DNA of 64,000 nt from Eledone cirrhosa (taxonomy: Eukaryota), in NCBI GenBank assembly GCA_964016885.1, contig OZ024748.1, forward strand, positions 28,520,001-28,584,000, in the 5' to 3' direction. Under the pieces are notes generated by a model. That model made no database searches and was not told the origin of the DNA. It saw nothing but the letters and a program-made list of their open reading frames with translations. The position numbers and the translations under genes are program-made. Positions 20,470-54,716 of this stretch are shown here, one piece after another; position 1 is the first letter of the stretch; each line of letters starts with the position of its first letter.

Positions 20470-21210
20470 AATCTAACCTAATACATCAAGCATCCAATAC
20501 TAAATTATCGTTGATTATGTGAAGGACATATAATCTATATATTACGTTTCCTGGATTGTGAAAATGGTGGTGTATACGAAAACCATAACATTATTTTGCC
20601 TCTCATTTTTAATATTTCTCTGCATACAAGCTTCTTTATCATACATAAAAAATACTTTACCAATACAACCCCCATAATACTCTTGATTGCCCGCTTAAAG
20701 TGCTTGTATTGCATATAACACCTTGCCGCACAATAATCTTATATAAATAAGACACACGTGCATGCCCCACGTGTAACTATTGCATACACTAACTACTTCA
20801 AACTATCCTCTTGCATTATCTTCGTAAACTGCCGATGTTGTATTTTAATTTTAATTTTGTTTTAATTTTCTTTTAATATGATTTTAATTTTTGAATGTAA
20901 ATTGCCATGCTAAAATATTATAATGGATGTCACCCCACTATGCATCGATATATACACATGTTTCTGTATGTCTCTTGTGTTGGAAAGGAGGTCATGTATG
21001 TAAACAATCATTGAAAAATTGCTCCGAAGACTCCAAACCTCGGTTTGGACGAAACAATTGTAAGCTAATAAATGGTTTGAACATAACTTTGATTCATGTA
21101 ATTTCTATATAACTGCTCTGTAGAACAACTGATGTTATTACATTGAGCTATTTATCTTACTGGTAATAAGGTAGTAATAAATTACTGTCTTTCACTGTTT
21201 AGGGTTTAAA
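20470..21210 (+). mobile_element. Highly decayed Penelope-like element remnant
   Basis: Frameshifted FLD...VY-KP (PLE RT thumb-like) at about 20545-20585, hammerhead-like motif at 21021, and 3' block 21115-21200 similar to 52591-52678. Confidence 0.4.
21021..21065 (+). ncRNA. Hammerhead-like motif with core variant CCGAAGA
   Basis: gct-CCGAAGA-ctccaaacc-tc-ggtttggac-GAAA-caattg-TA-agc: 8-bp helix II, palindromic helix III, short helix I. Confidence 0.55.
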
Positions 21211-21305
21211 ATATATATAACTATAAAAAGTTTTAGTATATACATAACCATAAATAGTATCCTTAATACTATATATATATATATATATTGTAATTATGTA
21301 ATTAT

Positions 21306-21522
21306 GAAGGCGTGTGGCTGAGTGGTTAGAGAATTGGATTCACAATCGTAAGGTTGTGAGTTCGATTCCAGGACCAGGCGATGCGTTATGTCCTTGAGCA
21401 AGACACTTTATTTCACGTTGCTCCTTCTACCTGGAGTTGCGACCGATAGATAGTATTAGCAATTGGAAAGACCAACGGAAACTTTGTTCCCTCGGTCCGA
21501 TTTGACGAAAGTCGATCGTTCC
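21306..21522 (+). mobile_element. tRNA-derived CORE-type SINE family B
   Basis: A-box tggctgagtgg, B-box gagttcgattcc, CORE-like tgtccttgagcaagacacttta. Near-identical to 54502-54716. Confidence 0.88.
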
Positions 21523-21523
21523 T

Positions 21524-21575
<52 letters not shown>

Positions 21576-21720
21576 AGAATAAATATACCAAATGAGTGTT
21601 TACGACAACTTATGCGAAAATGTTCCATGTTTCGACGGGTTTAACGACTATACAGTGTATTGGTTCCATACCATCAACCCAGTCTCTTCAGACGGTCTTC
21701 CGAACATTATTTGTATCCAT

Positions 21721-21852
21721 GCCCTTGCCATTCTGAGTTCAAATCCCGCCGAGGTTAACTTTGCTTTTCATCCTTACGGGGTCGATAAAATAAAGTACCA
21801 GTAATGCACTGAGTAATTGCTGGCCTTGTGCCAAAAGGTAGAAACAATTATT
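21721..21852 (+). mobile_element. 5'-truncated SINE family A
   Basis: Matches the consensus from the B-box to the gtagaaacaattatt tail. Confidence 0.88.
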
Positions 21853-22209
21853 TTTATCCACCCCTTGTTTTCTGGGGAACCCAGGGTGGTGAGATAGGGG
21901 AACTGATAAAATATCAACTCCCCTATAATTTAGCGACCATGTCAATACCTATTTATAGCATTGTAAGAATGTTACCCCGCCACCACCCACCCACGGTACC
22001 GGCTATCCATGGCATACCCACTACGGCCATTCATAGTGACATTTTAGTCACAGACACCTACTTGTAGCAGTGGTCAAGCATGGCATCACTCCCAGTAGCC
22101 ATGTCGTTATATATCCCCATCTTACTCAGCCATCTCATGCCCCCGTAGTGATGGCAACACGAAGGAATCTGGATGTAATCTGTGATGCTTCAAGATACTG
22201 GGTGCTTAC

Positions 22210-22251
22210 CTCAGGATACTTCCAGTTACAATGCCCTAACTGGTCATCTAC
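22210..22251 (-). CDS. Candidate 42-nt internal exon of an unidentified host gene (VDDQLGHCNWKYPE)
   Basis: Minus strand ttatatgcag|GTAGAT...CCTGAG|gtaagc: good acceptor, strong donor, only phase 0 open. Confidence 0.45.
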
Positions 22252-22392
22252 CTGCATATAATATATATATAAATGTAGGATCTCGATGTAGATCGGGTGG
22301 CGACCATTGTAGTGCACGTACAACATATAGAAATGGTTTCTACTGTTTCATTCATAAGAAATCATCATCATCAGGAAAATCCATATATATAA

Positions 22393-22465
<73 letters not shown>

Positions 22466-22621
22466 CTTACACCATTTCTATCTCCAGGAGTAATTTACCC
22501 GATATATCCACTTATATCTTTGTAGTTAACTATTATTATAGTTATGTGCATTGTGGCGACTATATATACATATACATATACATATATATATATATTGATA
22601 CAAATACGCGTGTATTATATA

Positions 22622-22799
22622 TTGGCAGTATCGGTAGAGGGTCGGGCACCATGCTTTGAAGCATAGAGTTACCTCCCTTTATGATCTGAGTTCAAATCCC
22701 GCGGAGGTTAACTTTGCCTTTCGTCCTTACGGGTTCGATAAAATAAAGTACCAGTAATGCACTGGGATAATTGCTGGCCTTGTGCCAATAGTAGAAACA
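22622..22799 (+). mobile_element. SINE family A (short form)
   Basis: Full consensus match. 8-bp TSD attatata (22614-22621 and 22800-22807). Confidence 0.9.
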
Positions 22800-22927
22800 A
22801 TTATATAGTTATAGAGGTGCGTATATACATTTTAATTTATATTTTTAATTATTGTGTGTCTACCATTGATTATAGATTCCATACACTGGTGGCATTCCCT
22901 GTTTTATTGATGGCACACTTTCTCTCT

Positions 22928-22995
<68 letters not shown>

Positions 22996-22997
<2 letters not shown>

Positions 22998-23194
22998 CGA
23001 GGGGGTGTGGTAAGGAACCAGATGGACCATAACGCACCAGAGTACTCAATACTTAGGGTAGTAGAGTGGGTAATAGGAAAGAGTTTGAGCCCGACGGCAG
23101 AGCTCAAGCCGTTTCGACGGCTATTTCTGGACTACAGAAATAGTCCAGAAATAGCCGTCGAAACGGCTTGAGCTCTGCCGTCGGGGTCAAACTT

Positions 23195-23240
<46 letters not shown>

Positions 23241-23368
23241 CGAAAGAAATGTGGTAAGGAACCAGGTGGACCATAACGCACCAAAGTACTCAATACTTAG
23301 GGTAGTAGAGTGGGTAATAGAAACAAGTAAGACCCCGACGGCTGAGCTCCGTCGGGGTCTTACTTATT

Positions 23369-23373
<5 letters not shown>
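22996..23373. repeat. Two related fold-back elements in (TA)n
   Basis: About 100-bp direct repeat (22996 and 23239), each ending in a palindrome. Arms 23077-23134/23141-23198 and 23317-23341/23349-23373. Confidence 0.88.
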
Positions 23374-23413
<40 letters not shown>

Positions 23414-23628
23414 TACAGTAGACGAGGAGTGGACATTACAGTGGGTATACATATATGCTACAATAATCTGTAATATTTATTCTCTAGTCATATGCTACAT
23501 TGGGCTGTCAATATTCCTGAGATAGCTAATAGCACACACTCTGATATGATGCTATTTATACACACCTATCACTCTATATTGATATATTACTAAATTATAT
23601 GGAAATGAGCAATCTAGTGCACACACAC

Positions 23629-23659
<31 letters not shown>

Positions 23660-23784
23660 TGTATGTATGTATGTATGTATGTATGTATGTATGTATGTAT
23701 GTATGTATATGAATGTGTGTGTGTGTGTGTATGTATATATATTTGTGTGGGCGGATACAAATGATTAATCTCTCTCTCACTCTC

Positions 23785-23868
<84 letters not shown>

Positions 23869-23870
23869 TG

Positions 23871-23924
<54 letters not shown>

Positions 23925-23948
23925 TGTATGTATATATATATAAATATG

Positions 23949-24011
<63 letters not shown>

Positions 24012-24834
24012 TTATGGTAAATATAAACATGCTGACTATAGAGGGTTGCGTATGTAACGCATCAATCAGTAAATAATGAAGCAATTCGCATCAAGCACCC
24101 AACGTCAGGTTTATTCAACATCCAAATATGATTTGACAGTCAATGATGGAGTATCTAAACTATAATAAAGTAAGAAGCGCGGGACTGCGTACGGTTTATG
24201 ATTTTTTTTTATCCCAGTAGTAAAATAAGTTGGATTACTTTGAATAAATAATGAATGAATATTACATAATTTATCATCTACTAAATTTCACAGCTGTTTA
24301 TTAAATATATTTTATTACTTATTTAGAGATTCACTTCTTTAAAATTTTCAAATGTCAACACTTCCGGTTAGCGATCGTTTAAATAAATATTCATATATTT
24401 CTGTCACTAATTTTCTCCTAATGCAGTTTATATATAATATCGTCTTTTTTTAATGTATCATGGATTACGTTACTGATTACATAAGACAGTGTAACGCAGT
24501 CTTCGTTCAATTTCTATGTATTATATATTGTCAATTACGATTTTCTTTGCTGTATCATATCTACAATATATATATCTGCGTATAATATCAATATACACAC
24601 TACACATGCTAGCAGAAAACCACCCTAAGGGTGGTTTTTTTGCTAGTATATAGAATAAGTAAAATGCGAAGTTCAGTGTAGATGTTAAAGAGTTATTTAT
24701 TAACAAAGCTGTGATACACATTTCCAAGACGGTCATGACTACATGATTGTTCAATCATGTAACCGGTCGCATGAAATCATTAAACAGTAGCTCATATAAT
24801 AAGTCTATCCAATCTAAAGACTTCGCATTTTCCT

Positions 24835-24969
<135 letters not shown>

Positions 24970-24973
24970 ATAT

Positions 24974-25043
<70 letters not shown>

Positions 25044-25164
25044 TCAAAATTGACAGAAGAATTTCTCACCCACTGAGTAAATTTGATTATTTACTTATAA
25101 TAACTATCTTCGGTTCCGTTAAATTAAATTATAAACAATAATTGTAAAGTTCTGTTTTTATATG

Positions 25165-25449
25165 TGTTGTATTCCTCTCGGTACTCGCAGAGAAAACACA
25201 ACGAGTTATATCAAATAATTTGTGTATTGTACGAAACAACCAAAACGCCCCCCCCCCCTCACAGTAGCAGAATAACATAAAGTAAGTCCCAGCAGCAGTC
25301 TGTGACCGAGTTTTTAATACCAACGCTGACTGACTGCCCAGGTCACGTGATTCATATGCAAATGCGTGAGCACGTGTAAATTGAATAAAACGAATTTAAC
25401 AGTCCATACAACAATGAGGTTGTGAGTTCGATTCCCAGTCCATACAACA
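25165..25449 (-). repeat. 3' LTR (285 bp)
   Basis: Differs from the 5' LTR by 2 substitutions and poly-C length (11 versus 16). Contains two cacgtg boxes and atgcaaat. Confidence 0.96.
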
Positions 25450-25483
25450 CCTCCCCACCGAAATTGATGCAACAAAAGAAGCA

Positions 25484-28400
25484 TCAACAGCAAAGTCTCT
25501 CTGGGGGTTTACGAGTTCTCTTGGACCGTCTTCGATTGTCTGGTCCATACTCTGGAACGGGCAACAAGGTCTTGGGTCTGGTCTGTCTTGGAGTTAGTGG
25601 CACTATTTCCGAGATCTCCATCGGGTGATCTGTTGCAAATTCAAAAACAGTGTCTACTGCATCACCAGGTTCATTGTCTTCCTCAGCAGTGTACCGCGGT
25701 TGCAGCTGTTCCCAGTGTCGTCTCCACACCGGGCCATGAGGTATGTCCTTAACGTTGAAGCAGCGAGCACCCAATGACTTCTTAATGATTGCTGGTACCC
25801 ATCGGGGATCTTTGTCTCGGCGAGGTCCGTAGTACAGTGCATACACAGGATATCCAGCCTTGTACTGCCTGGTAACCTTAGCGACACCTGCCGAGTCCGG
25901 AGTCATCTGAGACTTATATGCTTCCTTAGACTGCTTGCCTTGAGCGATGTGTGCTGGCGAGGGCAGCAGAGAATCAATCCTTGTCCGTATCTGCCGGTGA
26001 TTCAAAAGTTCACTCGGAGAGAATCCACTGGATGTCGGTGTTCTCCGGTACTACATCAAGAACTCTTGAAGTGCTCGCTTCGGCGGAAGAGAAGTCTTCC
26101 TCGGAGCTTGTTTGAAGGTCTGCACCAAACGTTCCGCTGCTCCGTTGGTAGCTGTGTGGTAAGGTGCCCCTGTCAGGTGCGTGATCCCACATTCTTTGCA
26201 CCAGCTCTGGAACTCCTCAGAAATAAAAGTTGGTGCGTTATCGGTGACTAGCGTGTGAGGAAATCCGAAGTGCGCAAAGTCTTCTTCAAGCAGATCTAAA
26301 GTGGCTCTGGAGGACGTGGATGACGTAGGATGAATGCATGGATACTTGGAATAAGCATCCGTGATCACCAACCAATTACTGCCCATGAAATTTATTGCGT
26401 GGTCCAGGTGTAAGCGGCTCCACGGCTTTTCAAGTAATATCCATGGGTGAACTGGAGACTTGGATGGCTGGTTTTGATGTTTACCACACGAATCACATTG
26501 TCGACTGGTTTTCTCTATAGCAGCATCGATACCAGGCCAATAAACAGCAGTTCTTGCCAATTGTTTCATGCGCTCCATGCCAAAGTGTCCGAGATGCAGA
26601 AGATTGAGGATCTTTGGCTGTAAGCTATGTGGAATCACAACTCTCGATCCATGGATAGGGCATCCGTGGCAGATACTGAGTGAATCCGATAACTTCCGGA
26701 ACTTATTGACTTCGTCATTGATCTCAGTATTCTTTGGTGGCCAGCCTTCACGGACGTAGCGTATCACTGTAGATATCACTGGATCTTTCCCTGACTCTTG
26801 ACGGAGGACGTTAGCATCGATAGGTTGGACTTGAAGACTGAGAGCTTTGATGGCGCACACCATGTCCATGTCTTCACCATTTTCCTTCCTGTCAAAGTCG
26901 ATGTCATTACCAAATGGCAAGCGACTGAGGGCATCTGCATTGCCATGATCCGCTGTTTTCCGATATTCGATGGTGTAGTCAAACTGGTTCAGCCACAGGG
27001 CCCACCGTGCTAGTCGGTTAGCAGCGAGAAGTGGCGTCCCTTTCCTCGGACTGAACAGTAATGTCAGTGGCTTGTGGTCAGTTACGAGTATAAACTGATG
27101 TCCGTACAGATACTGATAGAACTTCTGCAAGCCAAATATGATGGCCAGGGCTTCCTTTTGAATTTGGCCGTAGTTACGCTGTGCAGAAGTAAGAGTCTTG
27201 GACACATTGGATATTGTGCGCTCGCTTCCATCAGGATAGCGATGAAACAGGACTGCTCCAATACCAACGTTTGACGCGTCGCAAGCCAGTCCCAAAGTTT
27301 TGTTTGGATCGAAGTGTATCAGAACTCGATCCGATGAAAGCACATTTTTCGACTGATCGAAAACTGACTGTTCTTCATCTCCCCACTTCCAAGTAGTCGT
27401 TTTTTTCGTAAGGCAATAGAGTGGCTCTGCCATGCTGGTCAGGTTTGGGATAAACTTTCCATAGAACTGAACTGAACCCAGGAAAGACTTCAAGCTTGAG
27501 ACGTTCGTTGGAGGTGGCATCTTTAAAACTGCTTCGACCTTGGATCCCTTCAGCCGACAAGGTATTCCACACTGGGTAGTGCAAACTGGCACTTGTCACG
27601 GCGACATCTGAGTCCTTTGTCGCACAGACGTGTGAGCAGACACTTTAGGTTGTTCAAGTGATCGTTTGCATCTTTCCCACTGACGAGCATGTAGTCCTGG
27701 AAGACGGCCACACCAGGTAGATCTTGAGTCAGGTTTTCTATGATCTCCTGAAAGTAACCAGGTGCTGACTTGATTCCGAAAGGGAGTCGTTCCTGCAGGA
27801 GCACCCCACGGTGAGTGCTGAGTGCAAGCCTGTGTTGACTTTCTGGAGCCAGCTTGATCTGATTATAGGCATCAGCAAGATCAATCTTTGTGTATCCGAA
27901 TCCACCTCCGAGCTTCTGCATCAGTTCCTCTGGGAGTGGCATTGGATGACAATGATCTGCAAGTTGGTCATTAATTCCCACAGAGTAGTCACCACAAATC
28001 CGTAGTTTGGGCTTCAGGTTGCCTGAAGTATGTGCTTTACGAATCGGTACCACTGGCGTTCCGTATTGGTTGAACTGTACTGGCTTCCAGATTCCTTTGG
28101 CGATGCCTTCTTCGTAACCTTTGGCCAGGTCATCACGAAGAGCAAACGGGACCGGGCGTGCTTTGTGAAAGACCGGTGTCGCGTCCGACTTGAACTTCAC
28201 TTCCAGTTCGAAGTCATTAAGACATCCCAATTCTTGCTTGAAGAGATCTGGGAATTCATCACACATGTTGTGACAATCTCGTTGCATGGAAATATAGGGC
28301 TCATTTGAGGTCTTTGGATGCATCACTTCTGCACCCTCACTCTTGGCCTGGCTGTCTATGCTTTTCAATCCTAGAGCATTGTCCACGGAAATTCCCAGAG

Positions 28401-28602
28401 ACTGGATAGCGTTTCGTCCCAGCAAATTAAGATCAGGGATCTTGGTGACGATGTAGGGTATTGAATTCCGTTTACCGGTCGTTGGATCCTTGGTTTGGCT
28501 CATGAAAGTTCCCAGAACGGGCAGGTCGTGCTTGCTGGCAGATTCAAACCGATGTTTGACATCTTGCAGCTTCGGTTTTCCTAATTGTTTCCAAACTGAC
28601 AA
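25484..28602 (-). pseudogene. pol: pol (protease remnant, RT, RNase H, integrase), disrupted
   Basis: RT: KIDLADAYNQI, LPFGIKSAP, FQDY (YxDD broken). RNase H: LACDAS, KEALA, TDHKPL, NADALSR. IN: HHCC, LHLD, TDNA, NGAAER. Frameshifts near 27560 and 26008, stop at 26051. Confidence 0.95.
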
Positions 28603-29680
28603 GGAAACAAAATTCCATTGTGAAAAGTCTGTTCTGGATTGTTATTGGCACTTTCAAACTATGAGTATCGTGGGGAACTTCACCAAGGATCGCCTTGACT
28701 AGCTCAGCTTTCGTGATTCTTTTCACATAATTCTGTGAGCGTTGATTACGTTGCTGATGTTGTTTCTTTCTACACACCGCTTGCAAATGTCCCTTTTTGT
28801 CACAAAAATGACATTTGGCTTCTTTGAAGGAGCAGTCTGTCGCTTTGTGGGCCTTTCCACATCGGTAGTACATCTCCTGGTCTGTGGAATAAGACTGCTG
28901 ATGGTTCTTTCGAGGACCCTTGTTCTTGTTCTGCTGGACCTTGTAGACTTGCTTGGTTTTGGAACCGTAAACAGTTTCCTTGGCAACCTTTGCTGCGTTT
29001 TCGGTCCCGATGGCAACTTGGACAGCACGGGCGAAATCTAGTTCTGTATCCTTGATCTTGAAAATAGCCTTCAACACAGCTTCATTATTGACAGAACATA
29101 TAAATCTCTGTCTTAGAGCTTCATCTTGTGGATTTGTGATCGAAGGAAAATCACAGGTAGCTGCATCCTGACGTATACGTGCTGCCAGATCCTGGAGAGT
29201 TTCGCCTGGCTTCCGTTGCATGTCACTCCAGAACTTGAAACGTTCTCTCACAATGAAAAGTTTTGGGTCGAACTGTTCTTTCATGAAGTCAACAATTTCG
29301 TCCATTCTCAACTTGTTGATATCCTTAGGCGGATTTTGTTGAGCAGCCAGATTTGCAAGTTGTTTGTAGATAGCAGCCGTCTGATTAGTCAGGAACACTT
29401 GTGCCATGCGTTGCTCGGGTACAGCGTTAGCAGCCACAAACGTGCAGAATCTTGACCAGTAATCAGGCCATAGTTCTGTTGTTGAATCAAAAGCAGCAAA
29501 TGGTGGGATGAATGCTGTTGGTGTCGAAGCAACAGGCGACGCCAATAAACTCTGTTGTTCAAAATCTCGAGCACCAAACAGTTTTATCAGAGTGTCCATA
29601 TCTTTCTTGTGTTGATGCATTTGTTGTTCCATCTGTTCTCTAAACAACTTTATTAGCTCCGCTGTTTGTTGTTCCGCCAT
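28603..29680 (-). pseudogene. gag: gag with two zinc knuckles
   Basis: ATG at 29680 (MAEQQT...). Capsid-like QRKPGETLQDLAARIR...CDF. Knuckles YYRCGKAHKATDC (first Cys lost) and CHFCDKKGHLQAVC. Confidence 0.9.
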
Positions 29681-29787
29681 GTTTTTATGATAAACAATTT
29701 CCCGGCAATGTAGGTAAATCCTATCGGCAATGTAGGTAAATCCTATCGGCAATGTAGGTAAATCTTATCGGCGACGCCAATAAACTC

Positions 29788-30077
29788 TGTTGTATTCCTC
29801 TCGGTACTCGCAGAGAAAACACAACGAGTTATATCAAATAATTTGTGTATTGTACGAAACAACCAAAACGCCCCCCCCCCCCCCCCTCACAGTAGCAGAA
29901 TAACATAAAGTAAGTCCCAGCAGCAGTCTGTGACCGAGTTTTTAATACCAACGCTGACTGACTGCCCAGGTCACGTGATTCATATGCAAATGTGTGAGCA
30001 CGTGTAAATTGAATAAAACGATTTTAACAGTCCATACAACAATGAGGTTGTGAGTTCGATTCCCAGTCCATACAACA
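29788..30077 (-). repeat. 5' LTR (290 bp)
   Basis: Direct repeat of 25165-25449, followed on the minus strand by a PBS-like tggcgtcgccgata. Confidence 0.96.
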
Positions 30078-30748
30078 ATATGTATACTTTTATACATACA
30101 TTTGGTGAACATTCTAATATATAAATCTATGTAAAATCTACAAAATAATTGTTTAATTATGTATCTTTCTATATTTATTTATTTCTATCTCAATGTATTG
30201 AATTATATTATAAATAAGATTGCTATAAGTTTTACGGTTAGAGTGTGTTTGTGTACCGTTGAAAATCATCTTATTAAGAAGAAATACTTTTAAACTAGAA
30301 TTCTTACGAAATTATAAACTTTCTTTTCCATTTTTTCTTTTTCTTTTTACATATTTGTATACGTCTAACTCATAGTTGACTAACTACTGACCCTTTTCCC
30401 GTAAATATGCACACTCTTATTGTCATGTAATTTTTAATCTTATATCTGTTGATGTATGGAAGTATAGAAGTACTACATTTTGATATATTGTTTTTAATAC
30501 CACCTCTGCTTTGCTGTTGCTTTTAATTGTACTTGTAATTTGCAATATATTAATTGATATGGTATGAACCTCATCTGTGTTAAGGAGTTAATCTCTCGTA
30601 TGTAATACTCTTGAAACGTTTAGCAATATCTACATTCCTGGAGATATGTAGATTAAGGGACAGTTACATCGTATGTATCCTGGTATGGCTTGCCGCTCTA
30701 CATTGAAACATATGTAGAATTAAAATTATGTTTTAAGTATAACTTCGT

Positions 30749-33850: not shown

Positions 33851-34045
33851 GGAACTCGTCAAACTGAATCAAAGAAACAATGTTTCCATTGCTGATACTA
33901 TCTACCGGTCGCAAATCCTGGCAGAAGGAGCAAAGTGAAATAAAGTGTCTTGTTCAAGGACATAATGCATCACCCGATCCGGGATCAAACTCACAATCTC
34001 ACAATTGCGAATCCAATTCTCTAACCACTAAGCCGAACGTCTTCA
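33851..34045 (-). mobile_element. CORE-type SINE family B, older copy
   Basis: Reverse complement of the 21306 element. Confidence 0.82.
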
Positions 34046-54040: not shown

Positions 54041-54501
54041 AGATGTGTGTAATTCTGAGGGGCCCCCTCACCCGTTTTTCATACAAAGCTACTCATTTTC
54101 GACTGCTTTCTTTTTTTTATAGTTGCTTTGTTTTCCTGGGTGTAGATTCGGTTATTACCTTGCGTTTGTTTTAGATGTATCTACATTCATATTTAGGTAT
54201 TTGTCGGTCCTATTTGCTTATTTACGCACATAAACACACACATACACATACACATACATGTATATATATACACGTACAGACATAGAAAGTGCATCAGTTC
54301 ATTTGCCAATTTCATAGGAAATATGATCTTCTCAGACTCTCATGTCGCACTCCTCCCTTACCCAGAGAGAGAGAGAGGGGGGGGGGGTTGAGTTAGAGTG
54401 GGATCCATAGCAGCTGCTGAATATTGAGAGTGACAGTGGTGGAAGTAAATATTAGTAATCCAGTTGATCGATCAATTGAACAGCCTTCTTGTGAAATTAG
54501 T

Positions 54502-54716
54502 GAAGGCGTGTGGCTGAGTGGTTAGAGAATTGGATTCACAATCGTGATGTTGTGAGTTCGATTCCCGGACCGAACGATGCGTTATGTCCTTGAGCAAGAC
54601 ACTTTATTTCACGTTGCTCCTTCTACCTGGAGTTGCGACCGATAGAGAGTATTAGCAATTGGAAAGACTAATGGAAACATTGTTTCCTCGGTCCGATTTG
54701 ACGAATGTCGATCGTT
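54502..54716 (+). mobile_element. CORE-type SINE family B
   Basis: Matches 21306-21522. 16-bp TSD ccttcttgtgaaatta (54484-54499 and 54717-54732). Confidence 0.92.

What the first reader, a model, noticed from the sequence alone, without database searches (positions are those of the whole stretch)
25400..25449. Both LTRs end with a captured SINE B-box between duplicated LTR termini
Each LTR has cagtccatacaaca-[atgaggttgtgagttcgattcc]-cagtccatacaaca (25400-25449 and 30028-30077). The 22-mer matches the tRNA-like B-box region of SINE B in this window (aggttgtgagttcgattcc at 21351). The PPT and TSD abut the outer copy, so the element integrated with this foreign piece. Inference: a template switch captured SINE or flanking DNA into U3, giving an LTR with a potential TFIIIC site and two possible integrase attachment ends.
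Basis: partly seen in the sequence, partly recalled or inferred. Interest (0 to 1): 0.7.

Follow-up and report, generated by a model that had tools for sequence, protein, structure and literature searches.

The report
Retrotransposon family carrying captured SINE scrap
Nearly every examined copy of a young jumping-gene family in this animal genome starts its terminal repeat twice, with a 22-letter scrap of another repeat (a SINE) in between, likely the fossil of one copying error that picked up neighbouring DNA and was inherited by the whole family, with no sign so far that the scrap has a job.

Summary
The element is a Ty3/Gypsy (Mag-like) retrotransposon whose U3 begins: 14-bp terminus, 22-bp antisense SINE piece, same 14-bp terminus. 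182 of 199 exact inner-terminus hits carry the junction; 69 of 70 integrase-anchored 3' LTRs carry the piece. The 22-mer has 281 exact non-LTR copies (30 of 30 viewed are SINE heads) and matches the primer tRNA-Ser at only 11/22. A relative in another organism has the single terminus, so the piece is a recent gain. The inner junction breaks cleanly at TG; the outer has up to 5/6-nt microhomology; the piece carries the minority CpG-decayed SINE allele. This fits capture of the 5' flank of a copy inserted in a SINE, at minus-strand transfer (inferred; progenitor not found). The functional claims are weak: target-site duplications abut the outer end (21 of 22 pairs, 6 of 6 solos), there is no A-box, the piece is no more conserved than the rest of the LTR, and alleles that break the B-box were replicated. 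Look-ups of earlier scan notes showed no report of this LTR.

The parts
25165..25449 (-). 3' LTR (285 bp), TG...CA
   Evidence: at least 199 family LTR ends in the genome
29788..30077 (-). 5' LTR (290 bp)
25436..25449 (-). outer 14-bp U3 terminus of the 3' LTR (the end that abuts PPT)
   Evidence: 0 of 14 sites with shared variants
25414..25435 (+). 22-bp SINE-head piece (SINE sense on +, antisense to the element); B-box at 25425-25435
25400..25413 (-). inner 14-bp terminus (ancestral U3 start, continuous with the LTR core)
   Evidence: organism B contig runs from LTR core through one terminus into the PPT
30064..30077 (-). outer 14-bp terminus of the 5' LTR, abuts TSD
30042..30063 (+). 22-bp SINE-head piece in the 5' LTR; B-box at 30053-30063
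30028..30041 (-). inner 14-bp terminus of the 5' LTR
25160..25164 (.). 5-bp target-site duplication, left copy
30078..30082 (.). 5-bp target-site duplication, right copy
25450..25459 (-). polypurine tract
   Evidence: sequence; same in family copies
29762..29779 (-). 18-nt primer-binding site for tRNA-Ser, 8 nt after the 5' LTR (one mismatch in this copy)
28544..29764 (-). first open frame, gag position; no Pfam hit
27550..28641 (-). pol piece with reverse transcriptase (RVT_1); frame shifts against its neighbours
26051..27595 (-). pol piece with RNase H, integrase zinc finger and core; best solved relative Ty3-G Gag-Pol
25484..26050 (-). last pol piece (integrase C-terminal position), after a stop; no Pfam hit
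21305..21460 (+). SINE copy of the donor family (aligned part); further copies at 54496-54656 (+) and 33891-34045 (-). Same family as the donor, not the donor itself

Best explanation
This Ty3/Gypsy family's U3 begins with two copies of its 14-bp terminus around a 22-bp antisense piece of a SINE head, likely the fossil of one faulty minus-strand transfer that captured 5' flanking DNA, and likely a neutral passenger since. Inferred steps: an ancestral short-LTR copy integrated antisense into a decayed SINE; a read-through RNA from upstream was packaged; minus-strand strong-stop DNA ran through U5-R-U3 into the SINE flank; on transfer to the 3' end its tip paired with U3 nt 9-14, which resemble the next SINE bases, and copied U3 nt 1-14 and the PPT. 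PPT priming then made the outer copy the new terminus of both LTRs, and this one copy founded the present burst. Shown: the structure, its family-wide spread, the SINE source, use of the outer end, a short form in a relative.
For: Family-wide: 182 of 199, 69 of 70 integrase-anchored 3' LTRs, 81 of 83 3' and 37 of 37 5'/solo ends. Derived: organism B contig joins LTR core, one terminus and PPT, skipping the piece (1 contig, depth 26.7), while the piece is still 22/22 identical to SINE copies (281 exact). Inner junction falls exactly on the TG and lacks contiguous homology: no SINE head with the LTR's adjoining bases among the exact hits, none among 100 listed of 1588. Outer junction: SINE continues with matches at positions 3, 5, 6 in 24, 26, 21 of 30 copies, and 5 of 30 match the first three. 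The piece has the A allele found in 10 of 100 listed SINE heads at a CpG, pointing to a decayed genomic donor. The family does land in this SINE (1 of 128 flanks inside, 1 more within 35 nt). No constraint: 4 of 22 against 33 of 208 sites with shared variants, Fisher p = 0.76; B-box core broken in 8 of 81 long LTRs, one broken haplotype at three sites with different flanks. Microsimilarity-guided switches by LTR-retrotransposon RT are documented (PMC5131818, passages).
Against: The predicted progenitor was not found: 0 of 4 hits for the left junction were LTRs and 0 hits for the right junction; both patterns were tight. LTR nt 3-6 do resemble the SINE beyond the inner junction (29, 30, 27, 15 of 30), which a double switch would also explain. 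The outgroup rests on contigs of one run; a contig of organism D carries the long form (226 nt, 5 differences, depth 3), and other relatives were not resolved. The conservation test has little power (22 sites, young family). Short revertants arise (2 of 83) but have left no short-short offspring, which is compatible with, though no proof of, an advantage for the long form.
Confidence: 0.58

Rival explanations
1. Double template switch inside the particle onto a co-packaged SINE-bearing RNA: PPT-primed plus-strand DNA left the template after 14 nt, copied 22 nt of sense SINE RNA and returned to the start of U3 (or the same on the minus strand with antisense RNA). No progenitor in a SINE is needed.
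For: Outer-junction microhomology; partial likeness at LTR nt 3-6; Ty3 re-primes repeatedly at the PPT/U3 junction (PMC5371799, passages); double switches described in PMC5131818; no progenitor found.
Against: A return by homology should leave the SINE's two bases at the inner junction, but the LTR's TG is there; a donor with contiguous homology was not found; the allele is the decayed minority one rather than the common form.
Confidence: 0.22
2. DNA-level insertion into a resident 3' LTR: internally primed target-primed reverse transcription or break repair templated by a SINE, the 14-bp repeat being a target-site duplication.
For: 14 bp is in the usual range of LINE-made duplications (recalled); priming microhomology at one end; cqgypsy_1 of Culex has tRNA copies between a 26-nt LTR duplication, read by its authors as an insertion (PMC3286476, passages).
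Against: The duplication starts exactly at LTR base 1, a coincidence of roughly 1 in 100 for a random site in a 285-bp LTR (inference); the piece is internal, without the SINE 3' end or tail.
Confidence: 0.1
3. Whatever its origin, the piece was kept because the lone B-box binds TFIIIC at the outer edge of the 5' LTR and shields the promoter from silencing.
For: B-box core intact in 73 of 83 3' LTRs; only the long form amplified in this genome; TFIIIC binding to SINEs and lone B-boxes is reported elsewhere (search listing only).
Against: No excess conservation; sub-lineages with T54, C61 or C62 changed were replicated; a founder effect explains fixation.
Confidence: 0.08
4. The piece is a 3' tRNA-binding element like the U3 half of the Ty3 bipartite primer-binding site.
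For: It is antisense to a tRNA-like T arm and lies in U3, where Ty3 has such boxes (PMC5371799).
Against: Duplex with tRNA-Ser outside the PBS-bound 18 nt is -12.3 kcal/mol, reached by 265 of 500 shuffles; organism B's relative lacks it.
Confidence: 0.02

Closest known systems
Mag-lineage Ty3/Gypsy elements (PMC3286476 and PMC3601003, passages)
   Same: about 4.9 kb, short LTRs, tRNA-Ser PBS, 5-bp TSD, Mag A-type att motifs, RT-RH-IN order
   Different: U3 start doubled around a SINE piece; clade not tested by phylogeny
LTR-mediated retroposition by microsimilarity-dependent template switching (Tan et al. 2016, PMC5131818, passages)
   Same: host sequence joined to an LTR element through a few shared bases, then re-amplified
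   Different: there host mRNA replaces internal coding sequence; here 22 bp enter the LTR terminus of a coding family, with duplication of the att end and homology at one junction only
cqgypsy_1 of Culex quinquefasciatus (PMC3286476, passages)
   Same: Gypsy element with tRNA-like DNA between direct duplications of LTR sequence
   Different: whole tRNA dimer at the U5/PBS side, 26-nt duplication, one assembled copy; here a SINE fragment at U3 in both LTRs of about 200 LTR ends
TRIMp3: Cassandra, Helenus, Ajax (Kojima 2024, PMC10886601, first of six parts and passages)
   Same: Pol III-gene-derived sequence inside LTRs; SINE insertion into an LTR proposed as origin
   Different: those are non-coding, under 1 kb, with conserved A and B boxes serving as promoter; here a coding element, B-box only, antisense, unconstrained

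Membership tests
Ty3/Gypsy LTR retrotransposon | two LTRs TG...CA, PBS, PPT, TSD | tested here: met
Ty3/Gypsy LTR retrotransposon | pol order RT - RNase H - integrase, nearest to Ty3 | tested here: met
   (Ty3-G Gag-Pol E 1.9e-38)
Mag lineage | PBS for tRNA-Ser or -Leu, 5-bp TSD, LTR about 120-300 bp | tested here: met
   against the table in PMC3286476
Mag lineage | att motifs TGTTRKR ... RMRWMYAYAACA (Mag A) | tested here: met
   7 of 7 and 11 of 12 positions by eye, motif from PMC3601003
Mag lineage | placement in the Mag clade on an RT tree | not tested
   no reference RT set was fetched
TRIMp3 (Helenus/Cassandra/Ajax) | non-coding, under 1 kb | tested here: not met
   4.9-kb element with RT, RNase H, integrase
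TRIMp3 (Helenus/Cassandra/Ajax) | conserved A and B boxes in the LTR | tested here: not met
   no A-box with 0-1 mismatch 25-110 nt upstream, while 19 of 30 SINE heads match a looser A-box pattern exactly; B-box unconstrained
Ty3-type bipartite PBS | U3 box complementary to the primer tRNA | tested here: not met
Extra-TFIIIC (lone B-box) site | B-box core motif | tested here: met
   73 of 83 3' LTRs; consensus recalled
Extra-TFIIIC (lone B-box) site | TFIIIC occupancy in vivo | not testable with these tools
   needs ChIP or CUT&RUN

The most novel reading that the evidence does not exclude
A coding Gypsy family gained a host TFIIIC site in one step by transducing 5' flanking SINE DNA into its U3 terminus, and swept the genome because that site insulates its promoter: 5'-flank capture at minus-strand transfer as a route by which LTRs sample host regulatory DNA.
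Probability: 0.1. Interest if true: 0.65.

Novelty: new variant of a known kind. Interest (0 to 1): 0.36.

Why it matters
U3 is the fastest-changing part of LTRs and the sources of its new sequence are rarely traceable. Here donor, both junctions, an outgroup without the piece and about 200 descendants are all readable, which makes it a clean natural example of an LTR growing outward by capturing host DNA and re-making its attachment end. If the flank-capture route is general, terminus-insert-terminus signatures should be found in other families and would date and place progenitor copies. No function is shown, so the importance is mechanistic rather than biological.

Tried and rejected
Search for a short-LTR sister family in the own genome: PPT plus short form gave 1 exact hit; a looser PPT-terminus pattern gave 189 hits, of which the 100 listed held only 3 family LTRs, unrelated hits and a satellite on C10, 89 unlisted; the integrase-end protein search returned 148 matches, none from a clearly separate family. 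Progenitor patterns: nothing. tRNA gene as donor: ARAGORN of 7 SINE loci a tRNA, Rfam lists no tRNA in 21200-25600 at E up to 10, the T-stem has the SINE's A-C mismatch; not every tRNA isotype of the genome was compared. Expression: no RNA holder listed, no evidence either way. Runs of organisms C and E did not resolve the U3 start (tables cut: 734 pieces not shown), and whether organism B also has a long form, or what organisms F, G and H carry, is left open. The long5/short5 labels printed are a script error (the outer terminus was matched); its TSD and divergence values stand, and one search is the clean census. Folding the RNA 3' end did not explain the A>G clusters (mean pairing 0.50 against 0.36). 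PMC4494074 (passages) and PMC6238403 (passages) held nothing on this structure. The repeat finder was swamped by satellites.

Full report
The observation. The window holds a 4.9-kb LTR retrotransposon on the minus strand: LTRs at 29788-30077 and 25165-25449, differing by 2 substitutions and one homopolymer indel, with a 5-bp TSD and a PPT. Its coding region is in four pieces with RT, RNase H and integrase domains in Gypsy order; the best solved relative is Ty3-G Gag-Pol. The PBS matches tRNA-Ser genes of this genome. These traits fit the Mag lineage as tabulated in PMC3286476 (passages) and PMC3601003 (passages); no tree was built. Read in the element's direction, each LTR starts with a 14-bp terminus, 22 foreign bases and the same 14 bp again. 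The 19-nt match to the SINE at 21351 is real; 0 of 200 shuffled LTRs reach it.

It is a family trait. The inner terminus plus five core bases occurs 199 times exactly, 182 times with the SINE junction in front. Of the 17 others, the 10 among the first 100 listed were all viewed: 6 carry a mutated piece, 2 are short 3' LTRs whose own 5' LTR is long (L045, L092), 1 is an internal-deletion junction (L097), 1 is a mini-element of two inverted U3 ends (L093); 7 were not seen. To avoid selecting on the LTR I anchored on the integrase end (148 matches) and read 70 3' LTRs (the 30 loci given plus 40 chosen mostly as not yet seen; L045, already known to be short, was not refetched): 69 carry the piece, 1 does not. 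Over all loci held, 81 of 83 3' LTRs and 37 of 37 5' or solo ends are long (LTRs with a damaged inner terminus drop out of this count). One 5' LTR has the 36-bp unit twice (L053). Gains and losses affect one LTR of a pair, as slippage between 14-bp repeats would. Paired LTRs differ by a median 1.4% (22 pairs, maximum 4.1%): a young burst from one long-form founder. No short-short element and no short sister family was found.

Source of the piece. The 22-mer has 281 exact copies outside the LTRs; 30 of 30 viewed are heads of the tRNA-like SINE family also present three times in the window. Against tRNA-Ser the best ungapped identity is 11 of 22; ARAGORN of 7 such SINE loci a tRNA. At the first base of the piece, 90 of 100 listed SINE heads (of 1588) have G, mostly in a CpG, and 10 have A (counted by eye); the LTR has A, the allele expected from CpG decay, which suggests a decayed genomic donor rather than the common form.

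Polarity. In contigs of organism B one joint skips the piece and runs from the LTR core through a single terminus into the PPT (1 contig, depth 26.7; two more contigs leave the reference at the same point and one stops at 25413), while that run holds the SINE word at very high depth. B's LTR core differs at 15 of about 113 bases, whereas the piece is still identical to SINE copies, so the inner copy is the ancestral terminus and the gain is recent. Against a tidy picture: one contig of organism D has the long form (226 nt, 5 differences, depth 3), which may be a close relative or trace DNA; C and E were not resolved; the tables were cut.

Mechanism. The two junctions differ. The inner one falls exactly on the TG of the old terminus. 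No SINE head with the LTR's adjoining bases appeared among the exact hits (2 exact hits, both with the SINE's T), though LTR nt 3-6 resemble the SINE beyond it. The outer one lies where U3 nt 9-14 resemble the SINE's continuation (24, 26, 21 of 30 at three positions; 5 of 30 match the first three bases). An integration junction inside plus a microhomology junction outside is what follows if a short-LTR copy sat antisense in a SINE, was transcribed from upstream, and its minus-strand strong-stop DNA ran into the flank before the obligatory transfer (inference from the standard scheme, as reviewed in PMC5371799, passages). The family does insert into this SINE (L014; 1 of 128 flanks). The progenitor was sought and not found, so a double switch onto a packaged SINE RNA (0.22) and a DNA-level templated insertion (0.10) remain.

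Function. Two attachment ends: the TSD abuts the outer terminus in 21 of 22 pairs (at most one mismatch) and 6 of 6 solo LTRs. Only L093 has a TSD at an inner terminus, and a 36-bp slip gives the same result. Pol III promoter: no A-box within one mismatch upstream. TFIIIC site: the core is intact in 73 of 83 3' LTRs, but shared variants hit 4 of 22 sites against 33 of 208 elsewhere (p = 0.76), while the outer 14 bp have 0 of 14. A haplotype that changes T54 sits at three sites with different flanks, and one that changes C62 in 9 elements. tRNA binding: no better than shuffles (265 of 500). The piece is most likely a passenger; the test is weak in so young a family.

Known systems. Microsimilarity-guided capture of host RNA by LTR elements is established (PMC5131818, passages). 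cqgypsy_1 has tRNA copies between an LTR duplication (PMC3286476). Cassandra, Helenus and Ajax carry Pol III-gene sequence in LTRs but are non-coding with both boxes (PMC10886601, first part and passages); this element fails that membership. Nine literature searches (listings) showed no report of a doubled U3 terminus around captured flank; the library lacks most subscription papers, and Repbase entries were not searchable. No supplements were read. Earlier scan notes gave nothing for this sequence or wording; they call the genome octopus-type, which I did not test.

Verdict. Real, well documented, a new variant of a known process; mechanism inferred at about 0.58; no function shown. Interest 0.36.

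Noticed in passing
LTR nt 23-132 in L057/L092/L155/L162/L203/L208 and in L187/L192/L210: Two sub-lineages carry 7-9 A>G changes (element sense) confined to LTR nt 1-140, against 0-1 in six control copies and no excess in the internal region where covered; A>G makes 15 of 41 shared but 10 of 157 private variants. Looks like ADAR editing of the RNA 3' end fixed by reverse transcription and then amplified; one such change breaks the B-box. The double-strand partner is unknown.
   Followed up: partly
window 29707-29772: A 22-bp unit overlapping the PBS is repeated three times here and one to four or more times in other copies; it includes part of the PBS and bases complementary to the tRNA-Ser T stem.
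   Followed up: partly
window 29535-29558: A 24-nt second copy of LTR end + spacer + PBS start lies inside the gag frame, present in 22 of the 23 rows printed (one is a deletion junction); unexplained.
   Followed up: partly
L093:196-378: A 183-bp insertion made of two inverted U3 ends with a 5-bp TSD, one end at the outer and one at the inner terminus.
   Followed up: partly
G000:C4:316088823-316170147 (L136-L141): Tandem cluster of tRNA-Ser genes, many at about 317-bp spacing; PBS variants among family copies mirror variants among these genes.
   Followed up: no
L009/L010, G000:C28:45228740-45234843: Two 3' LTRs with identical flanks in inverted orientation about 5.5 kb apart: an inverted duplication.
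   Followed up: no
window 23080-23195 and 24595-24661: Long inverted repeats that draw only chance-level Rfam hits below gathering scores; possibly DNA-transposon ends.
   Followed up: no
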